Source: a virus
Lineage: Duplodnaviria; Heunggongvirae; Uroviricota; Caudoviricetes
IMG/VR virus record: IMGVR_UViG_2541047425_000010
DNA length: 18,707 nt
Strand: one strand, 5' to 3'
Positions 6,001 through 12,000 of this stretch are shown in pieces. A program made the position numbers. Numbering within the stretch: the first letter of the stretch is position 1; the number at the start of each line of letters is the position of its first letter.

Positions 6001-9000
6001 AAACCGCGCTCCTGAGCAAAGTTTGGGGTGATTTTCAGCATGACGCCCCCTTGCCATTCGCCGGGATGATATCGATCCCAGCATCGCTATAACTGGTCAG
6101 TTTCTTTGGCATTCGAAGCAACACAAAGCCTTCAGTGCCACGACGTGCCAATTCACGCAATTTCATGACTGAGCGGGGTCGCGGAGAGCTACGATCGATC
6201 TCGATAGCCACACTCCCACCAGTTTTTGCTGTTGCGAGAATATCAACACGGAAATTTCTGCCATCGATTCTTACTGTGACATTGCTTGCCACATGCATCC
6301 CCTGTGACTCAAGGATCGTTACGACATCAGCCAGAAAGCTGTAACGCTCCTCTGTTCTCAGTGGTACAGTGCTCAGTGTACGGATCAGTGCCGATTTGGT
6401 TGCTGCTGACATAGTTTATCACTCAATAGTTAGCTCGATAATTATTTCACCAGGAACTATCGCGCGCTTATACAGTGATCTACCTAACCTATGTACCTGC
6501 CTTCTGGCCTAGGCCAAGGGATACAGGCCTTACCAACGACTCCACCCCCTTACCCCCTCCTCGCTTCCTTTCAGGAAATTAGTTGCATGTGAAATTATTT
6601 CTAGCGCAACTAACCGCCATCATGGTGTCGGGGGAAACTTCCGTACCGCTACTGGCGAAAGCATCCAGCCACGGCTGGCTCTCGCGTACTTCTGGACATA
6701 CACCCGTAACCGGGTGTTGGCGCTCCGTCTTGCCCTGTTGCCCTTCCTGAACGATACAGGCTCCTTGTCCCACTCTTCCTGGTACACTCTCGCGTACTCT
6801 GCTGCAATTTTTACCCGGGTGGTCGGGTCTAGCTGTAACAATTGCTCCTGTATCCAGTCCCGATCAGCATCACAGTACTGCTCGGGCATAACCGTTTTGA
6901 TTTGCCTGTTCACTCACACCTCCGATGGGCTGTGTGTCCAGGATTAATCATCGCCTCTTACGAACGCAGGGAACGGACGAACCTCTTCCGCCTCAACTGT
7001 GCCGTCATCAAAGGTTTTGACGTATATTTCTCGTCCGACGAGAAGCGCTTTACTGATTGCACTCTGCGCCACGCCAAAGTCCTTAGCGGCTTTCTTTTGG
7101 CCGAACCTGTATACGTAATCAGCCAGGGTCTCTTTTTTCATCGCCATAACTGACTCCTTCAAAATGCCCATATCATTACGCACAGTTATTAAAATGTCAA
7201 CACCGCAGATATTTCATTACATATAACCAAAGGTGATATGGTATGAACATGAAAAAGAAACCGTTAACCCCTGAGCAACTGGAAGACGCCAAGCGTCTGA
7301 AAAGTATTTTTAACGCTAAAAAGAAAGAGTTAGGCCTGTCGCAGGAATCATTAGCCTATGAATTAGGTGTTACCCAAAGCGCTGTTAATCAGCTAATGGC
7401 TGGCATCAACGCCATAAATGCCAGCCACGCAGCACAGCTTGCTAAGATACTGAATGTAAAGGTCGGAGATTTCAGTCCCAGCCTGGCAAAATCTATTGCA
7501 GAAATGGCGCTCGCAATTGAAGAGCCATTAACTCGTGTCCCCGCTTACGAATATCCGTTACTCTCCTGCGTACAAGCTGGCGCATTCTCAATGGATGATA
7601 TTTCGTACACCGCAAAAGATGCGATTAAATGGATCTCCACCACCACAAAAGCCAGTGACAGGTCGTTCTGGCTGGAGGTCAAGGGGCATTCAATGACCGC
7701 ACCGCAGGGTGGTAAACCCAGCTTCCCTGAAGGTATGCTGATACTCGTTGACCCTGAACGGGAAATCGAGGATGGCGATTTTTGCGTGGCCCGAATGAAC
7801 GGCGATGAATTTACCTTCAAACGATTCATTCGTGAGAGCGGTAAAGCGTACCTGGAGCCGCTCAACCCACGATTCGACATGATTGAGTGTAACGAAAACT
7901 GCCAGTTTGTCGGAAAGGTCATCAAATCGCAGTGGAATGATGAGACTTTTGATTGAGCTCACAGAGTGATTTGACATCCTTCACGCCTGAAGAATGTGGA
8001 GGATGTCAAAAGCACGTTGGCATCATCATGCCACGTAAAGAGGATTAGTTATGCTTCAAAAGCTAGACGTCGCAGACAGCGTGCGTCGCGAGCTGTCTCC
8101 CCGTACCGCGCGTAAACACAAAGCAGAGTTCGGCCAGTTCATGACGCCTTCTGGCGTGGCCCGTTTTATGGCCTCCTTGTTTCCACCGAGCACAATGAAA
8201 ACTTGCCGTCTACTGGACGCAGGCGCTGGTTTAGGCGCACTGTCTTGCGCCTTCCTCGACCGTTGGCTGGTTGGCGAGTTTGGCTTTGAGTCTGTCGAGG
8301 CAACAGCCTACGAAATCGACAAAAAGCTGTGTGGTCACCTTGCGAAGCACTTAACCGGGTACAGGAGAGTGACGCCCCGCATCATCGAAGGGGATTATAT
8401 TGAGCTGGCAACCGCCGAAGGTCTACAGGATCGAGGTTATACCCATGCAATACTTAATCCGCCTTACAAGAAGATCAATAGCCAGTCAGCCCACCGGCAG
8501 GCTCTTCGCACTGTCGGTATCGAGACGGTAAATCTGTATTCCGCCTTTGTTGCACTGGCTGTAGGTGAGGTTGCACCTGGCGGGCAGATAGTGGCCATAA
8601 TCCCACGTAGTTTCTGCAACGGACCGTATTACCGTCCGTTCCGTAATTTCATACTTGAGCGGGCAGCAATCCGCCATATTCATTTGTTCGAATCACGTAG
8701 CAAAGCTTTCAGGGATGACGATGTGTTGCAGGAAAATATTATCATCCGCCTGGAGCGTGGAGGCCGTCAGGAGGCTGTTACAGTCACAACTTCGACCGAT
8801 GATAGCTTTTTTGACCTGGTCACCTACGAACACCCATTTGACCAGATTGTGTACCCGGACGATTCGGAGCGGTTTATTCATGTGCCGACCACGCTCGAGA
8901 AAAGCACCATTGAGTTATCATCTGCCGTACAATGTTCGCTGGCTGATATTGGCGTGAAGGTATCGACCGGACCGATAGTTGATTTCCGACTGAAAGCTCA

Positions 9001-12000
9001 TTTGCGCAGCATGCCAGAAGAAGGAACTGTTCCCCTGATCTACCCGAGCCATTTGAGTATGAGTAGCACTGTCTGGCCTGTGGAAGGTTTGAAGAAACCC
9101 AACGCAATCATGCGCAACGACGAGACAGAAAAGTGGCTTTACCCGAACGGTTTTTATTGTGTGGTGCGTCGTTTCTCGTCGAAGGAGGAAAAGCGCCGAG
9201 TGGTAGCAAGCGTCGTTGATCCTGCTACCTTCAGTGAGTATTCAGTGTTGGGATTTGAAAATCACATGAACGTGTTTCATGAGAACAAACATGGGTTACC
9301 CGAGGCGCTGGCCCGTGGCTTGGCCGTGTTCCTGAACACTACCGCAGTGGATAAGTATTTCCGTCGCTTCAACGGGCATACACAGGTCAATGCAACCGAC
9401 CTCAAGATGATTAAGTACCCAAGCCGTGACACTCTGATAGAGCTTGGCAAGTGGGCTATGCAACAAGAAACTCTCACGCAAGAACATATTGACGCTAAGC
9501 TAGGAGCTCTGACTGCATGAACAACCAAAATGATTATATTGAGGCCGCTCAGCAAATTATAGCATCCTTAGGCCTGCCCAGAGCGCAGCAGAATGAGCGT
9601 TCTGCTTTGTGTTTGCTGGCACTCCTGAACCTCACACCGGGAAAAGCATGGGCCGACGCGGAAAATCCGCTTGTGGGCATTACACCAATCATGAATTGGG
9701 TTCGGGAGCACTACGGCAAGGTCTACGCACCCAATACTCGTGAGACATTCCGCCGCCAGTCTATGCATCAGTTCTGCGCTGCTGGAGTAGCCCTCTACAA
9801 TCCGGACAAGCCCGATCGCCCAGTGAACAGCCCGAAGGCTGTTTATCAGATCGAACCTGCTGCTCTGTCCATGCTACGCACTTTCGGCAGCCCGGCATGG
9901 CACGATAGCCTTGCAACCTATTTAGCCGAGCGTGAAACGCTGGTTACCCGCTATGCTAAGGAGCGCGAACAGAATCGTATCCCTGTTGAAATTGCTGCGG
10001 GCCAGCAAATAACCCTCAGTCCCGGCGAGCACAGCGAACTTATCCGTGCCATAATAGAGGACTTCGCCCCACGTTTTGCTCCGGGTAGCGTGCTGGTCTA
10101 TGCTGGCGACACTGGCGAAAAGTGGGGCTACTTCGACGCTCCACTGCTGGCCGGGCTAGGTGTTGATGTGGATTCACACGGTAAAATGCCAGATGTGGTG
10201 CTACATTTTACTGCGAAAAACTGGCTGCTACTGGTTGAGTCTGTCACCAGTCATGGACCGGTTGATGGGAAGCGGCATGCTGAGCTTGCCAGGCTGTTTG
10301 CCGGATCAACAGCCGGACTTGTCTATGTGACCGCTTTTCCAAATCGCTCCATCATGGGGCGATATCTTGGTGAAATCGCATGGGAAACAGAGGTATGGGT
10401 GGCTGATGCACCTTCTCATCTTATTCACTTCAACGGAGTGCGATTTCTTGGCCCCTACTCTACTGAATGAGAACAGGACCAGATAAATAGCCCGGCCCAT
10501 GCGCCGGGTTTTTCTTTGCATATCCCCTCCTGTTATCTGTCCCCTTAAAAAATAAATCACTTTAAAAATCAGTTAAGTAATAATTTCTCGTCCTTAAAAA
10601 AGCACCGACGGTATTTACATGAAAATAACCGCAAGTTATATTTATTTCAAGCCAGAAACATCGCGCCCTTACACAGGGCTACATAAATCAGTCGTACGGC
10701 GCGACTTAACCCGCCGCAAAATGCTCTTTAACAATCTGGAGCTTTACAGCGTCAATGACCTGTTTAGACCCCTACACGTAAACGTGCTGTATCATCGGGT
10801 GCGATCCGGTCGATGAGAGAGTATCCCCGCGCGAGAGCGAGAACGGCGTGAGAACGGGCAACACTGGCAGGAAGTTGGCGCTGACCAATACAGGGAATGT
10901 TTTGGGGTGTGGTGAAGGGTTCATGGACGGGAATATGTCGCACGTAAAGCGGCGAGGCCCGAGGGACTATTGCTGAAGATAAGTAGGCCGAATCGGGTCG
11001 AAATGGGTCTCCCACCTGCCACATCGCCAAAGCATTTCCGAGAAAGGACGGTATTGACTGCGTGTGATGCCGGGGCTATATTGGGCGAACACCTTATAAA
11101 ACGGGTGTCGGGATTCTCACCCCGCTGACAATCGAGGCGATACAGACGCGCCAGCGTCTTTTTTTGTATCGACATACACGCACATCTTATCAATGGTGGG
11201 CTGTATGGGGCCGACTTCGGTCGGGCTGGTTCCCTTGATTGCCAGTTGTGAGAACCCTGTACAGTCCACCGCCAGCGAGCTTCTCACCTCCTGCGGTGGT
11301 TATTAATCACCAATCAAGGAGGCTGCCATTATGGCTACTATCCCAGTCCTTTCTCAACCTGAAATCACCATTTCCAATGGCCGCGCTGTTACTACGTCCT
11401 TTGCCGTTGCCGAATATTTTTGCAAGCGACACGATAACGTATTACGTGCCATTGCAAATATTGAATGCTCAGAGAAATTTAACGCCCTCAATTTTGAGGA
11501 CGTTACCTACACCGACGCCAAAGGCGAACAACGCCCAATGTACCAAATCACCAAAAACGGATTCGTCTTCCTGGTGATGGGCTTCACTGGTAAAAAAGCA
11601 GCTGCATTCAAGGAAGCCTATATTGCTGAATTCGATCGCATGGAAAAACAGCTATGGGAACAGAAACAACTGGCTCTGTCTTCTCCTGCGATGAATATCA
11701 ATTTTCCTTTATCGTGGTTTTCAGAGCATCACCCCTACGCCACGATGAACTATGTTGATCGCAAGGTTATCAGCCTTGATGCTTCCGTACTCTTCGACAT
11801 GCCAAGCCCAACTATGCGCATCCTCAACGAGCTACACAGCAAGGGCTATAACGTTGACGCCGCTGTCGCCGAATTTAACGCCTTCAAGCATCTGACGGAA
11901 GAAATGCGCCGTAAATTGCTGGATATTTCCCGCACATCGGAAAAATCTTCCCGCTTTGGTTTCAACGTTAATCTTTAATTAAATCTCTCCCCGATTATAT

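What the first reader, a model, noticed from the sequence alone, without database searches (positions are those of the whole stretch)
8051..10470. Restriction-modification pair in the rexAB slot of the immunity region
Directly after cI, where lambda carries the rexA-rexB exclusion genes, there is a gamma-class N6-adenine methyltransferase with all canonical motifs in order, followed by a 317-aa ORF whose start overlaps its stop (ATGA). The cassette has an RBS but no obvious promoter of its own and ends at an intrinsic terminator (10490-10518) just before the PL-like promoter. It is therefore probably co-transcribed with the repressor from PRM in the lysogen, making it a lysogen-expressed defence against superinfecting phage. 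The second gene is only putatively a nuclease, so a non-classical two-gene defence module built on a methyltransferase cannot be excluded. CTGCAG occurs once in the window (4148-4153), too few to say anything about specificity.
Basis: partly seen in the sequence, partly recalled or inferred. Interest (0 to 1): 0.7.

Follow-up and report, generated by a model that had tools for sequence, protein, structure and literature searches.

The report
Known PstI-type restriction system beside cI

Summary
ORF 8051-9520 is an N6-adenine DNA methyltransferase. ORF 9517-10470 is a full-length BsuBI/PstI-family restriction endonuclease. The two overlap by ATGA, and an intrinsic terminator follows at 10489-10518. 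Both proteins are 100% identical to ORF31 and ORF30 of phage P13374, the Stx2a phage of E. coli O104:H4. Papers name that system M.EcoGIII/R.EcoGIII. They report CTGCAG methylation and cleavage, about 99% site methylation in a lysogen carrying a close variant, protection against lambda-like phages, and lower plasmid uptake. A 2018 paper already states that this R-M pair sits left of cI where lambda has rexA-rexB. The cassette occurs in 98 phage records and 139 of 5,426 complete E. coli genomes. The "non-classical defence" alternative is rejected. Co-transcription with cI from PRM remains an inference. No consensus promoter or T-tailed terminator lies between cI and the methylase, but the 94-nt leader holds a perfect TTGACA and a strong hairpin. 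Small additions from this work: a candidate OL operator at 10625-10639, an isrK/C4-RNA/Rha module downstream, and evidence that this slot carries different cargo in related prophages. Verdict: real, ordinary, already known.

The parts
7174..7233 (.). OR region with three repressor operators: OR1 at 7174-7189, OR2 at 7196-7212 and OR3 at 7216-7233. PR faces left (TTGACA 7200-7195, -10 at 7177-7172). PRM faces right, towards cI.
   Evidence: The window holds exact matches to the DNase-footprinted OR1, OR2 and OR3 of phage BAA2326 (PMC5977221).
7243..7956 (+). cI repressor (237 aa), a lambda-like LexA/S24-family protein. It is the first gene of the inferred cI-M-R transcription unit.
   Evidence: Pfam Peptidase_S24 9.5e-29 and HTH_3 8.2e-10. 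It is annotated as CI in identical phage records.
7957..8050 (+). 94-nt leader between cI and the methylase. It holds a 16-bp hairpin (7970-8012) whose left arm contains a perfect TTGACA (7971-7976). A second hairpin lies at 8018-8033 and the Shine-Dalgarno GAGG at 8040-8043. There is no T-tail after either hairpin on the + strand.
   Evidence: RNA fold of -39.8 kcal/mol, z-score -4.28, with 0 of 200 shuffles folding as well. Sequence. No promoter and no + strand terminator were scored here.
8051..9520 (+). M.EcoGIII-type gamma-class N6-adenine DNA methyltransferase (489 aa). The reported target is CTGCAG.
   Evidence: Pfam Eco57I 3.3e-9. PADLOC MTase_II 5e-248 over residues 1-489. 100% identical to P13374 ORF31. 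Specificity comes from papers.
9517..10470 (+). R.EcoGIII-type BsuBI/PstI-family Type II restriction endonuclease (317 aa). It has an N-terminal HTH DNA-binding domain and a C-terminal PD-(D/E)XK-superfamily catalytic domain. Its start overlaps the methylase stop (ATGA).
   Evidence: Pfam PF17728 1.2e-54 and PF06616 4.6e-61. PADLOC REase_II 1.6e-168. SdaI 2IXS 1.2e-77. 100% identical to P13374 ORF30. P225 and D226 are invariant and E241 is at least 90% conserved across 27 family members.
10489..10518 (+). Intrinsic terminator that closes the cassette. It also scores on the - strand, so it may act in both directions.
   Evidence: An 8-pair stem with 6 G-C pairs plus a T-run. It is kept, with one C-to-T change that gives a G-U pair, in the 95.7% variant cassette of O111:H- 110512, where different genes follow.
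10614..10642 (+). Promoter-like site TTTACA-17-TATATT. It encloses a perfect palindrome, ATAACCGCAAGTTAT (10625-10639), which is a candidate OL operator and early-left promoter. It is not part of the R-M cassette but marks its outer border.
   Evidence: Promoter scan. A search for ATAAC-N5-GTWAT found 5 distinct sites (9 strand matches against 1.7 expected). They include footprinted OR1, a site overlapping OR3, and this one.

Best explanation
This is the EcoGIII restriction-modification system, a classical two-gene Type IIP system of the PstI/BsuBI family. It sits in the immunity region of a lambdoid prophage whose early region is that of the Stx2a phages P13374, PA2 and VT2phi_272.

Mechanism taken from papers on identical or near-identical proteins: the methyltransferase puts an N6-methyl group on the adenine of CTGCAG on both strands of the host and prophage DNA. 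The endonuclease cuts incoming DNA that carries unmethylated CTGCAG. The lysogen thereby resists unmodified lambda-like phages and takes up fewer plasmids.

Expression, inferred here: the pair is read as the distal part of a cI-M-R transcript. That transcript would start at PRM in the lysogen, and at a PRE-type promoter during establishment if the phage has one. It would end at the terminator at 10489-10518, as lambda does with cI-rexA-rexB.

- Each gene has its own Shine-Dalgarno sequence.
- The M-before-R order and the ATGA overlap couple endonuclease synthesis to prior methylase translation. This would favour protection before cutting when the phage enters a new host.
For: Domain and family matches:
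- both BsuBI/PstI endonuclease domains match, and the methylase matches Eco57I-type.
- PADLOC gives full-length Type II MTase and REase models at 5e-248 and 1.6e-168.
- SdaI structure 2IXS matches at 1.2e-77.
- the family's invariant PD and conserved E are present.

Identity:
- both proteins are 100% identical to the O104:H4 phage P13374 proteins.
- the 3.4-kb region is 100% identical to phages PA2, PA8, VT2phi_272 and phi346.
- the rare-codon positions tabulated for EcoGIII from REBASE fit the window. CTA at codon 5 and CCC at codon 17 of the methylase were read. Endonuclease codon 15 is Ile, starting AT.

Published function:
- CTGCAG specificity shown for M.EcoGIII, and R.EcoGIII reported active.
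- 98.8% of 2,902 CTGCAG sites methylated in lysogen RM13514, which carries a close variant. A strain without the cassette had 0%.
- Protection against lambda-like phages.
- Reduced conjugative transfer into cells carrying EcoGIII.

Operon inference:
- The genes lie on the same strand as cI with a 94-nt gap.
- No consensus promoter and no T-tailed terminator lies between cI and M, and a strong terminator follows R.
- OR1-OR3 and repressor-activated PRM are shown experimentally for this operator region, which matches the window exactly.
Against: - No transcript data were available, so the start point of the M-R mRNA is not shown.
- The leader holds a perfect -35 hexamer (TTGACA, 7971-7976), so an own weak or activated promoter is possible.
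- The leader also holds a very stable hairpin that could attenuate or process a read-through transcript.
- PRM of this phage type is weak, giving about 18 repressor molecules per cell. Yet methylation is nearly complete in the RM13514 lysogen. This fits a PRM-only supply only if M is translated far better than the leaderless cI.
- The primary paper on EcoGIII (Fang et al. 2012) could not be read here, so its results are cited second-hand.
- One C227-11 draft-assembly protein differs from the window endonuclease by W203V.
Confidence: 0.9

Rival explanations
1. The system is the same R-M pair, but it has its own promoter in the cI-M leader or the 3' end of cI. Its expression would then not depend on PRM or on the repressor level.
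For: - A perfect TTGACA lies at 7971-7976.
- The leader is kept almost unchanged with the cassette in O111:H- 110512. That prophage has a different cro gene and a repressor of 239 rather than 237 aa, and the repressor N-terminal parts were not compared.
- CTGCAG methylation is near-complete in lysogen RM13514 although PRM is weak in this phage type.
Against: - No acceptable -10 hexamer lies 15-18 nt downstream. The candidates are AATGTG and ATGTGG.
- The consensus scan scored nothing in 7957-8050.
- The shared sequence in O111 110512 already begins inside the cI 3' end. The leader therefore does not mark a module border.
Confidence: 0.25
2. The main role is not defence. The methylase would act as an epigenetic regulator of host genes, and/or the pair would act as an addiction module that kills cells losing the prophage.
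For: M.EcoGIII is reported to affect expression of about 1,900 genes in C227-11 (citing Fang 2012). Post-segregational killing is established for several Type II R-M systems (my own knowledge of the R-M field, not tested here).
Against: - An in-frame deletion of the R-M pair in RM13514 grew like the wild type (24.2 against 23.6 min generation time).
- The related paper's title says that Dam, not the PstI R-M system, regulates virulence gene expression.
- Phage and plasmid restriction are directly reported.
- Natural deletion variants that keep only an endonuclease remnant exist, so loss is survivable.
Confidence: 0.12
3. It is a non-classical methylase-based defence (MADS-, BREX- or DISARM-like), in which the second protein is not a simple restriction enzyme.
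For: Only weak partial matches of the methylase to MADS MAD2 models: NCBIfam 15 bits against a cut-off of 720, and PADLOC mad2 1.5e-13 over part of the protein.
Against: - The best PADLOC models are full-length Type II MTase and REase (5e-248 and 1.6e-168).
- The endonuclease has both PstI/BsuBI domains and aligns along its whole length with the SdaI structure.
- There are only two genes, bounded by cI and a terminator.
Confidence: 0.01

Closest known systems
EcoGIII R-M system (M.EcoGIII / R.EcoGIII) of the Stx2a prophage of E. coli O104:H4 (C227-11, 2011C-3493, phage P13374). The same cassette is in phages PA2, PA8, VT2phi_272, TL-2011c, ArgO145 and Ss-VASD.
   Same: - Both proteins are 100% identical to the P13374 copies.
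- The DNA from cI to the promoter-like site is 99.9-100% identical.
- The position is the same, directly after cI, and the terminator is the same.
   Different: Nothing differs in the cassette itself. The window's prophage is a different mosaic. Left of position 2540 it carries a phosphatase gene, an LpxR gene and, by annotation of similar records, a Q gene. The Stx2a phages have ninH, Q and stx2 there. No record in the phage or complete E. coli collections joins these two parts.
PstI (Providencia stuartii) and BsuBI (Bacillus subtilis), the prototype CTGCAG Type IIP systems that define Pfam PF06616 and PF17728
   Same: Same endonuclease family with both domains, a separate gamma-class N6A methylase, and the same reported recognition sequence.
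   Different: Identity to the prototype sequences was not measured here. The homologue search returned only near-identical E. coli copies among named proteins. The setting differs: this copy sits in a phage immunity region with the M-then-R order and overlapping stop and start. From memory, not checked, the PstI genes are divergently transcribed.
SdaI restriction endonuclease (PDB 2IXS)
   Same: Full-length alignment at 1.2e-77 and 42% identity, with the same two-domain layout.
   Different: SdaI has Lys251 where the window protein and the family consensus have Thr (EAVTS against EAVKS). From my own knowledge, SdaI recognises the 8-bp site CCTGCAGG.
Lambda rexA-rexB (cI-operon exclusion genes)
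   Same: Same map position between cI and the OL/PL side, on the same strand as cI. Both are lysogen-expressed and protect against other phages. PMC5977221 draws this parallel explicitly.
   Different: There is no sequence relationship. Pfam finds only methylase and endonuclease domains. This system cuts unmethylated DNA, whereas RexAB works by abortive infection (my own knowledge). Co-transcription with cI is shown for lambda but only inferred here.

Membership tests
Type IIP restriction-modification system, PstI/BsuBI family (EcoGIII) | Endonuclease with an N-terminal BsuBI_PstI_RE_N (HTH) domain and a C-terminal BsuBI_PstI_RE catalytic domain | tested here: met
   PF17728 at 1.2e-54 (residues 7-143) and PF06616 at 4.6e-61 (residues 155-307), both nearly full profile length. 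SdaI 2IXS at 1.2e-77.
Type IIP restriction-modification system, PstI/BsuBI family (EcoGIII) | Conserved catalytic-core residues of the family (the PD...E of the PD-(D/E)XK superfamily) | tested here: met
   In a 27-sequence alignment at 33-57% identity, P225 and D226 are invariant and E241 is at least 90% conserved. The window has all three. The position of SdaI K251 is Thr in the window and in the family consensus. PF06616 is placed in the PD-(D/E)XK superfamily by PMC3424549.
Type IIP restriction-modification system, PstI/BsuBI family (EcoGIII) | Separate, adjacent N6-adenine methyltransferase with motif I before motif IV (NPPY) and a C-terminal target-recognition region (gamma class) | tested here: met
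   FGQFMTP at 27-33, LLDAGAGLG at 54-62 and NPPY at 136-139. Pfam Eco57I. PADLOC MTase_II over residues 1-489. Only motifs X, I and IV were located by eye. Motifs V-VIII were not mapped one by one.
Type IIP restriction-modification system, PstI/BsuBI family (EcoGIII) | Methylates and cuts CTGCAG | not testable with these tools
   Reported for M.EcoGIII and R.EcoGIII, and supported by SMRT methylomes of lysogens. The window proteins are identical to the O104:H4 phage copies.
Type IIP restriction-modification system, PstI/BsuBI family (EcoGIII) | Restricts unmodified incoming DNA in vivo | not testable with these tools
   Papers report protection against lambda-like phages and reduced plasmid transfer into EcoGIII-carrying recipients.
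cI-operon accessory cassette of lambdoid phages (lambda rexAB type) | Lies between the cI stop and the OL/PL side, on the cI strand | tested here: met
   cI at 7243-7956, M at 8051-9520 and R at 9517-10470 are all on the + strand. The terminator is at 10489-10518 and the promoter-like site at 10614-10642. The same description appears in PMC5977221.
cI-operon accessory cassette of lambdoid phages (lambda rexAB type) | No promoter or terminator between cI and the cassette, so that it is read from PRM/PRE | tested here: inconclusive
   The scan finds no consensus promoter and no T-tailed terminator in 7957-8050. A perfect TTGACA and a 16-bp hairpin (z-score -4.28) are present. Transcripts cannot be examined with these tools.
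cI-operon accessory cassette of lambdoid phages (lambda rexAB type) | Homology to RexA or RexB | tested here: not met
   Pfam gives only methylase and endonuclease families for the two proteins. The resemblance is positional, not familial.
Methylase-associated multi-gene defence (MADS, BREX, DISARM) | Family-specific methylase and partner proteins reaching model cut-offs | tested here: not met
   NCBIfam MAD2 scores 15 bits against a cut-off of 720. PADLOC mad2 is a partial match at 1.5e-13, against 5e-248 for the Type II MTase model. There are only two genes.

The most novel reading that the evidence does not exclude
The least ordinary reading still open concerns regulation, not identity.

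- The R-M pair may be wired into the immunity switch as a cI-M-R operon.
- The conserved 16-bp leader hairpin (7970-8012) may set the ratio of repressor message to R-M message, by processing or attenuation.
- The phage may have a single symmetric OL operator (ATAACCGCAAGTTAT, 10625-10639) over its early-left promoter. The published analysis reported no identifiable OL.

Restriction strength would then follow the repressor level and fall on induction.
Probability: 0.3. Interest if true: 0.3.

Novelty: already known. Interest (0 to 1): 0.12.

Why it matters
- The cassette rides on the Stx2a phages behind major outbreaks, including O104:H4 in 2011 and O145:H28 in 2010.
- It shapes which phages and plasmids those strains can acquire, and it stamps a CTGCAG methylation mark on the whole genome.
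- All of this is already published, so the window adds no new biology about the system itself.
- What remains open is modest. How the pair is transcribed relative to cI is unknown. Whether this phage type has an OL operator is unknown. This site next to cI also appears to be a general landing place for defence and toxin-antitoxin cargo.

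Tried and rejected
1. Small upstream ORF: a 31-codon TTG-initiated ORF in the leader (7953-8048) is called by PHANOTATE in PV189404. I considered it as a translational coupler between cI and M. It is rejected because a 1-nt insertion frameshifts it to a stop after 12 codons in the O111:H- 110512 variant.
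2. Covariation in the leader hairpin: the stem is kept with a different loop in G1/2. In STEC1585 the left arm has uncompensated changes, and the hairpin is absent in UCPROB-001 and strain 48. There is no covariation support, so its function is left open.
3. OL by direct search: searches with the three footprinted OR sequences at up to 3 mismatches found only the OR copies. Only a half-site pattern search found the 10625 site. That pattern was partly built with the 10625 site in view, so the enrichment figure is somewhat circular.
4. CTGCAG avoidance: phage PA2 has 10 sites against 15-26 expected, depending on the model. The site ranks 16th of 64 palindromic hexamers, and several other palindromes are far more depleted. 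The depletion is mild and not specific enough to argue from.
5. Prototype identity: the large homologue search returned only near-identical E. coli copies among its best 120 hits. It gave no identity value to the PstI or BsuBI prototypes. The representative search supplied the diverse set used.
6. Fang et al. 2012, the primary EcoGIII paper, is not held by the library. Its findings are cited through later papers.
7. The 65-aa ORF at 10619-10816 has no Pfam match, and its ATG is lost in the G1/2 relative. It is treated as non-coding, in line with the '~1 kb without polypeptides' statement.

Full report
**What is in the sequence.**
The window reads like the reverse complement of a lambda-type immunity region.
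- A Cro gene (6944-7183, - strand; Pfam Cro 4.8e-34) faces a cI-type repressor gene (7243-7956, + strand; Peptidase_S24 9.5e-29, HTH_3 8.2e-10).
- After a 94-nt gap come a 489-aa ORF (8051-9520) and a 317-aa ORF (9517-10470), both on the + strand.
- The second ATG (9517-9519) overlaps the first TGA (9518-9520), giving ATGA.
- GAGG at 8040-8043 lies 7 nt before the first ATG. AGGAG at 9502-9506 lies 10 nt before the second.
- A G+C-rich 8-pair stem with a T-run lies at 10489-10518.
- CTGCAG occurs once, at 4148-4153, against about 4.9 expected.

**What the two proteins are.**
- The first protein matches the Pfam Eco57I methylase domain (3.3e-9). It matches a PADLOC Type II methyltransferase model from end to end (5e-248).
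- Its translation shows FGQFMTP (27-33), then LLDAGAGLG (54-62), then NPPY (136-139), then a long C-terminal region. That is the gamma-class order.
- The second protein matches both Pfam domains of the BsuBI/PstI endonucleases almost over their full lengths: PF17728 at 1.2e-54 and PF06616 at 4.6e-61.
- It also matches a PADLOC Type II endonuclease model (1.6e-168) and the crystal-structure sequence of SdaI, 2IXS (1.2e-77, residues 8-315).
- I aligned 27 family members at 33-57% identity, drawn from the 50%-identity representative library. P225 and D226 are invariant and E241 is at least 90% conserved, and the window protein has all of them.
- The position where SdaI has Lys251 is Thr in the window protein and in the family consensus (EAVTS). 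This is a family trait, not a defect.
- PF06616 is placed in the PD-(D/E)XK superfamily by PMC3424549.
- Weak partial matches of the methylase to MADS models are far below their cut-offs. The 'non-classical defence' hedge is rejected.

**It is a known, named system.**
- The stretch 7200-10620 is 100% identical to Stx2a phages PA2, PA8, VT2phi_272, phi346 and F765. It is 99.9% identical to P13374, the Stx2a phage of the 2011 O104:H4 outbreak strain. In total 98 phage records carry it.
- Both proteins are 100% identical to P13374 ORF31 and ORF30.
- One draft-assembly protein from strain C227-11 differs by a single residue, W203V.
- Papers call this system EcoGIII. PMC3893438 reports that M.EcoGIII cloned from C227-11 methylates the adenine of CTGCAG and that the endonuclease is biochemically active.
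- The same paper reports that 98.8% of 2,902 CTGCAG sites are methylated in lysogen RM13514, against none in a strain lacking the cassette. RM13514 carries a close variant, about 95% identical over the cI end and leader, not the exact window sequence.
- PMC6602927 summarises that EcoGIII methylates and cleaves CTGCAG, protects against lambda-like phages, and affects the expression of many genes.
- PMC4288162 shows lower conjugative transfer into EcoGIII-carrying recipients.
- PMC8257988 reports that an in-frame deletion grows like the wild type. The related paper's title says that Dam, not this system, controls virulence gene expression.
- A REBASE-derived table of rare codons for EcoGIII fits the window: CTA at codon 5 and CCC at codon 17 of the methylase, and an Ile codon beginning AT at codon 15 of the endonuclease.
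- I could not read the primary paper, Fang et al. 2012, so its results are cited second-hand.

**The map position has also been described.**
- PMC5977221, studying the O104:H4 phage repressor, states that lambda has rexA-rexB followed by OL and N to the left of cI.
- Its three DNase-footprinted operators match the window exactly, at 7174-7189, 7196-7212 and 7216-7233.
- It also shows in vitro that repressor at OR2 activates PRM and that repressor at OR3 represses it. Lysogens hold only about 18 repressor molecules per cell.
- PMC4587872 likewise notes the bsuBI system in the early regulatory region of the 'PST2' Stx2a phages.

**How it most likely works.**
- Shown, from papers on identical or near-identical proteins: adenine methylation of CTGCAG in the lysogen, and cleavage of unmodified CTGCAG DNA. 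The result is restriction of incoming phage and plasmid DNA.
- Shown here: the gene order M then R on the cI strand, the ATGA overlap, and separate ribosome-binding sites. No consensus promoter and no T-tailed terminator lies between cI and M, and a strong terminator follows R.
- Inferred: the pair is the distal part of a cI-M-R transcript from PRM. During establishment it would come from a PRE-type promoter, if the phage has one.
- Inferred: translational coupling favours methylase before endonuclease.
- Two points weaken the transcription inference. The leader has a perfect TTGACA (7971-7976) but only poor -10 candidates. It also folds into a 16-bp hairpin plus a second hairpin (-39.8 kcal/mol, z-score -4.28). 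These could process or attenuate read-through.
- Near-complete methylation despite a weak PRM is compatible with the model only if M is translated much better than the leaderless cI message.
- I put about 0.6 on PRM/PRE read-through as the main source of M-R mRNA, and about 0.25 on an own promoter.

**Distribution and neighbours.**
- The cassette is present in 139 of 5,426 complete E. coli genomes, always chromosomal.
- The 3' end of this cI gene plus the leader occurs in 147 genomes. Repressor and cassette are therefore tightly linked, but not always.
- O111:H- 110512 carries a 95.7% variant of the cassette after a 239-aa repressor next to a different cro. A Panacea-domain gene pair follows it.
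- G1/2 keeps only the last third of the endonuclease gene.
- UCPROB-001 carries a small membrane protein, an SDH-family Clp-fold protease and HicAB.
- Strain 48 carries HicAB.
- STEC1585 carries an unrelated 245-aa protein.

The site after cI is thus a variable cargo slot.

**Other things seen.**
- Candidate OL: the promoter-like site TTTACA-17-TATATT (10614-10642) encloses ATAACCGCAAGTTAT (10625-10639). This is a perfectly symmetric version of footprinted OR1 (ATAAC-N5-GTAAT). A half-site pattern search finds five distinct sites, including OR1, a site overlapping OR3 and this one (9 strand matches against 1.7 expected). It may be the OL that the literature did not identify. The pattern was built partly with this site in view.
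- Downstream RNAs: Rfam finds an isrK-type sRNA (11089-11164, 58.7 bits) and a C4-type antisense RNA (11189-11276, 77.1 bits), just before a Rha-family gene at 11331-11978. The sRNA has its own promoter-like site at 11054-11082 and terminator at 11144-11159. This resembles the Gifsy-1 isrK locus.
- Mosaic left arm: left of position 2540 the window stops matching the Stx2a phages. It carries a phosphatase gene, an LpxR gene and, by annotation of similar records, a Q gene. No record in the collections joins these two parts.

**Verdict.**
The system is EcoGIII, published since 2012, and its position beside cI is also published. Novelty is 'already known' and interest is low. The only open points are regulatory details.

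Noticed in passing
window 10614-10642: A promoter-like site (TTTACA-17-TATATT) encloses a perfect palindrome, ATAACCGCAAGTTAT (10625-10639). The palindrome is the symmetric form of the footprinted OR1 (ATAAC-N5-GTAAT). It is a candidate OL/early-left promoter, which the published study of this phage type said was not readily identifiable.
   Followed up: partly
window 11054-11978: An isrK-type sRNA unit has a promoter-like site at 11054-11082, the RNA at 11089-11164 and a terminator at 11144-11159. A C4-type antisense RNA follows at 11189-11276, and then a Rha-family regulator gene at 11331-11978. This RNA-controlled module sits where lambda would have N.
   Followed up: partly
window 7957-8050: The cI-to-methylase leader folds into a 16-bp hairpin (7970-8012) and a second hairpin (8018-8033), with a z-score of -4.28. 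The first stem is kept with a different loop in the deletion variant G1/2 but is degraded in STEC1585. Its function is unknown. A 31-codon TTG ORF annotated here in one phage record is frameshifted in a variant, so it is probably not a gene.
   Followed up: partly
loci L003, L004, L007, L008, L009 (prophages with the same or a related cI): The slot after cI holds different cargo in related prophages. The cargoes are the R-M pair plus a Panacea-domain pair, an endonuclease remnant only, HicAB, a small membrane protein plus an SDH-family Clp-fold protease plus HicAB, and an unrelated 245-aa protein. It looks like a hotspot for defence and toxin-antitoxin genes.
   Followed up: partly
window 1-2540: The window stops matching Stx2a phages at 2540. 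To the left lie a calcineurin-like phosphatase gene (1878-2543, - strand) and an LpxR lipid A deacylase gene (707-1666, + strand). By annotation of similar O157 prophages, a Q gene follows. No phage record or complete E. coli genome in the collections joins this arm to the Stx2a-type early region.
   Followed up: partly
window 4154-18707; phage PA2 (L005+L006): No CTGCAG occurs in the 14.5 kb to the right of the single site. Whole phage PA2 has 10 sites against 15-26 expected, and none in its first 24.4 kb. The depletion is mild, and other palindromes such as GCCGGC and GGCGCC are far more depleted.
   Followed up: yes
window 9517-10470 (protein residues 225-247): In the PstI/BsuBI family the Lys position of the PD-(D/E)XK motif seen in SdaI (K251) is Thr in the window protein and in the family consensus (EAVTS). 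Many relatives in the representative library are about 840 aa long and match the endonuclease at their C-terminal end. A PADLOC model of 840 positions matches the methylase with its first part and the endonuclease with its last part, so these relatives look like methylase-endonuclease fusions in the same M-then-R order.
   Followed up: partly
window 10619-10816: A 65-aa ORF begins inside the promoter-like site. It has no Pfam match, and its ATG is lost in the G1/2 relative. It is probably not a gene.
   Followed up: yes
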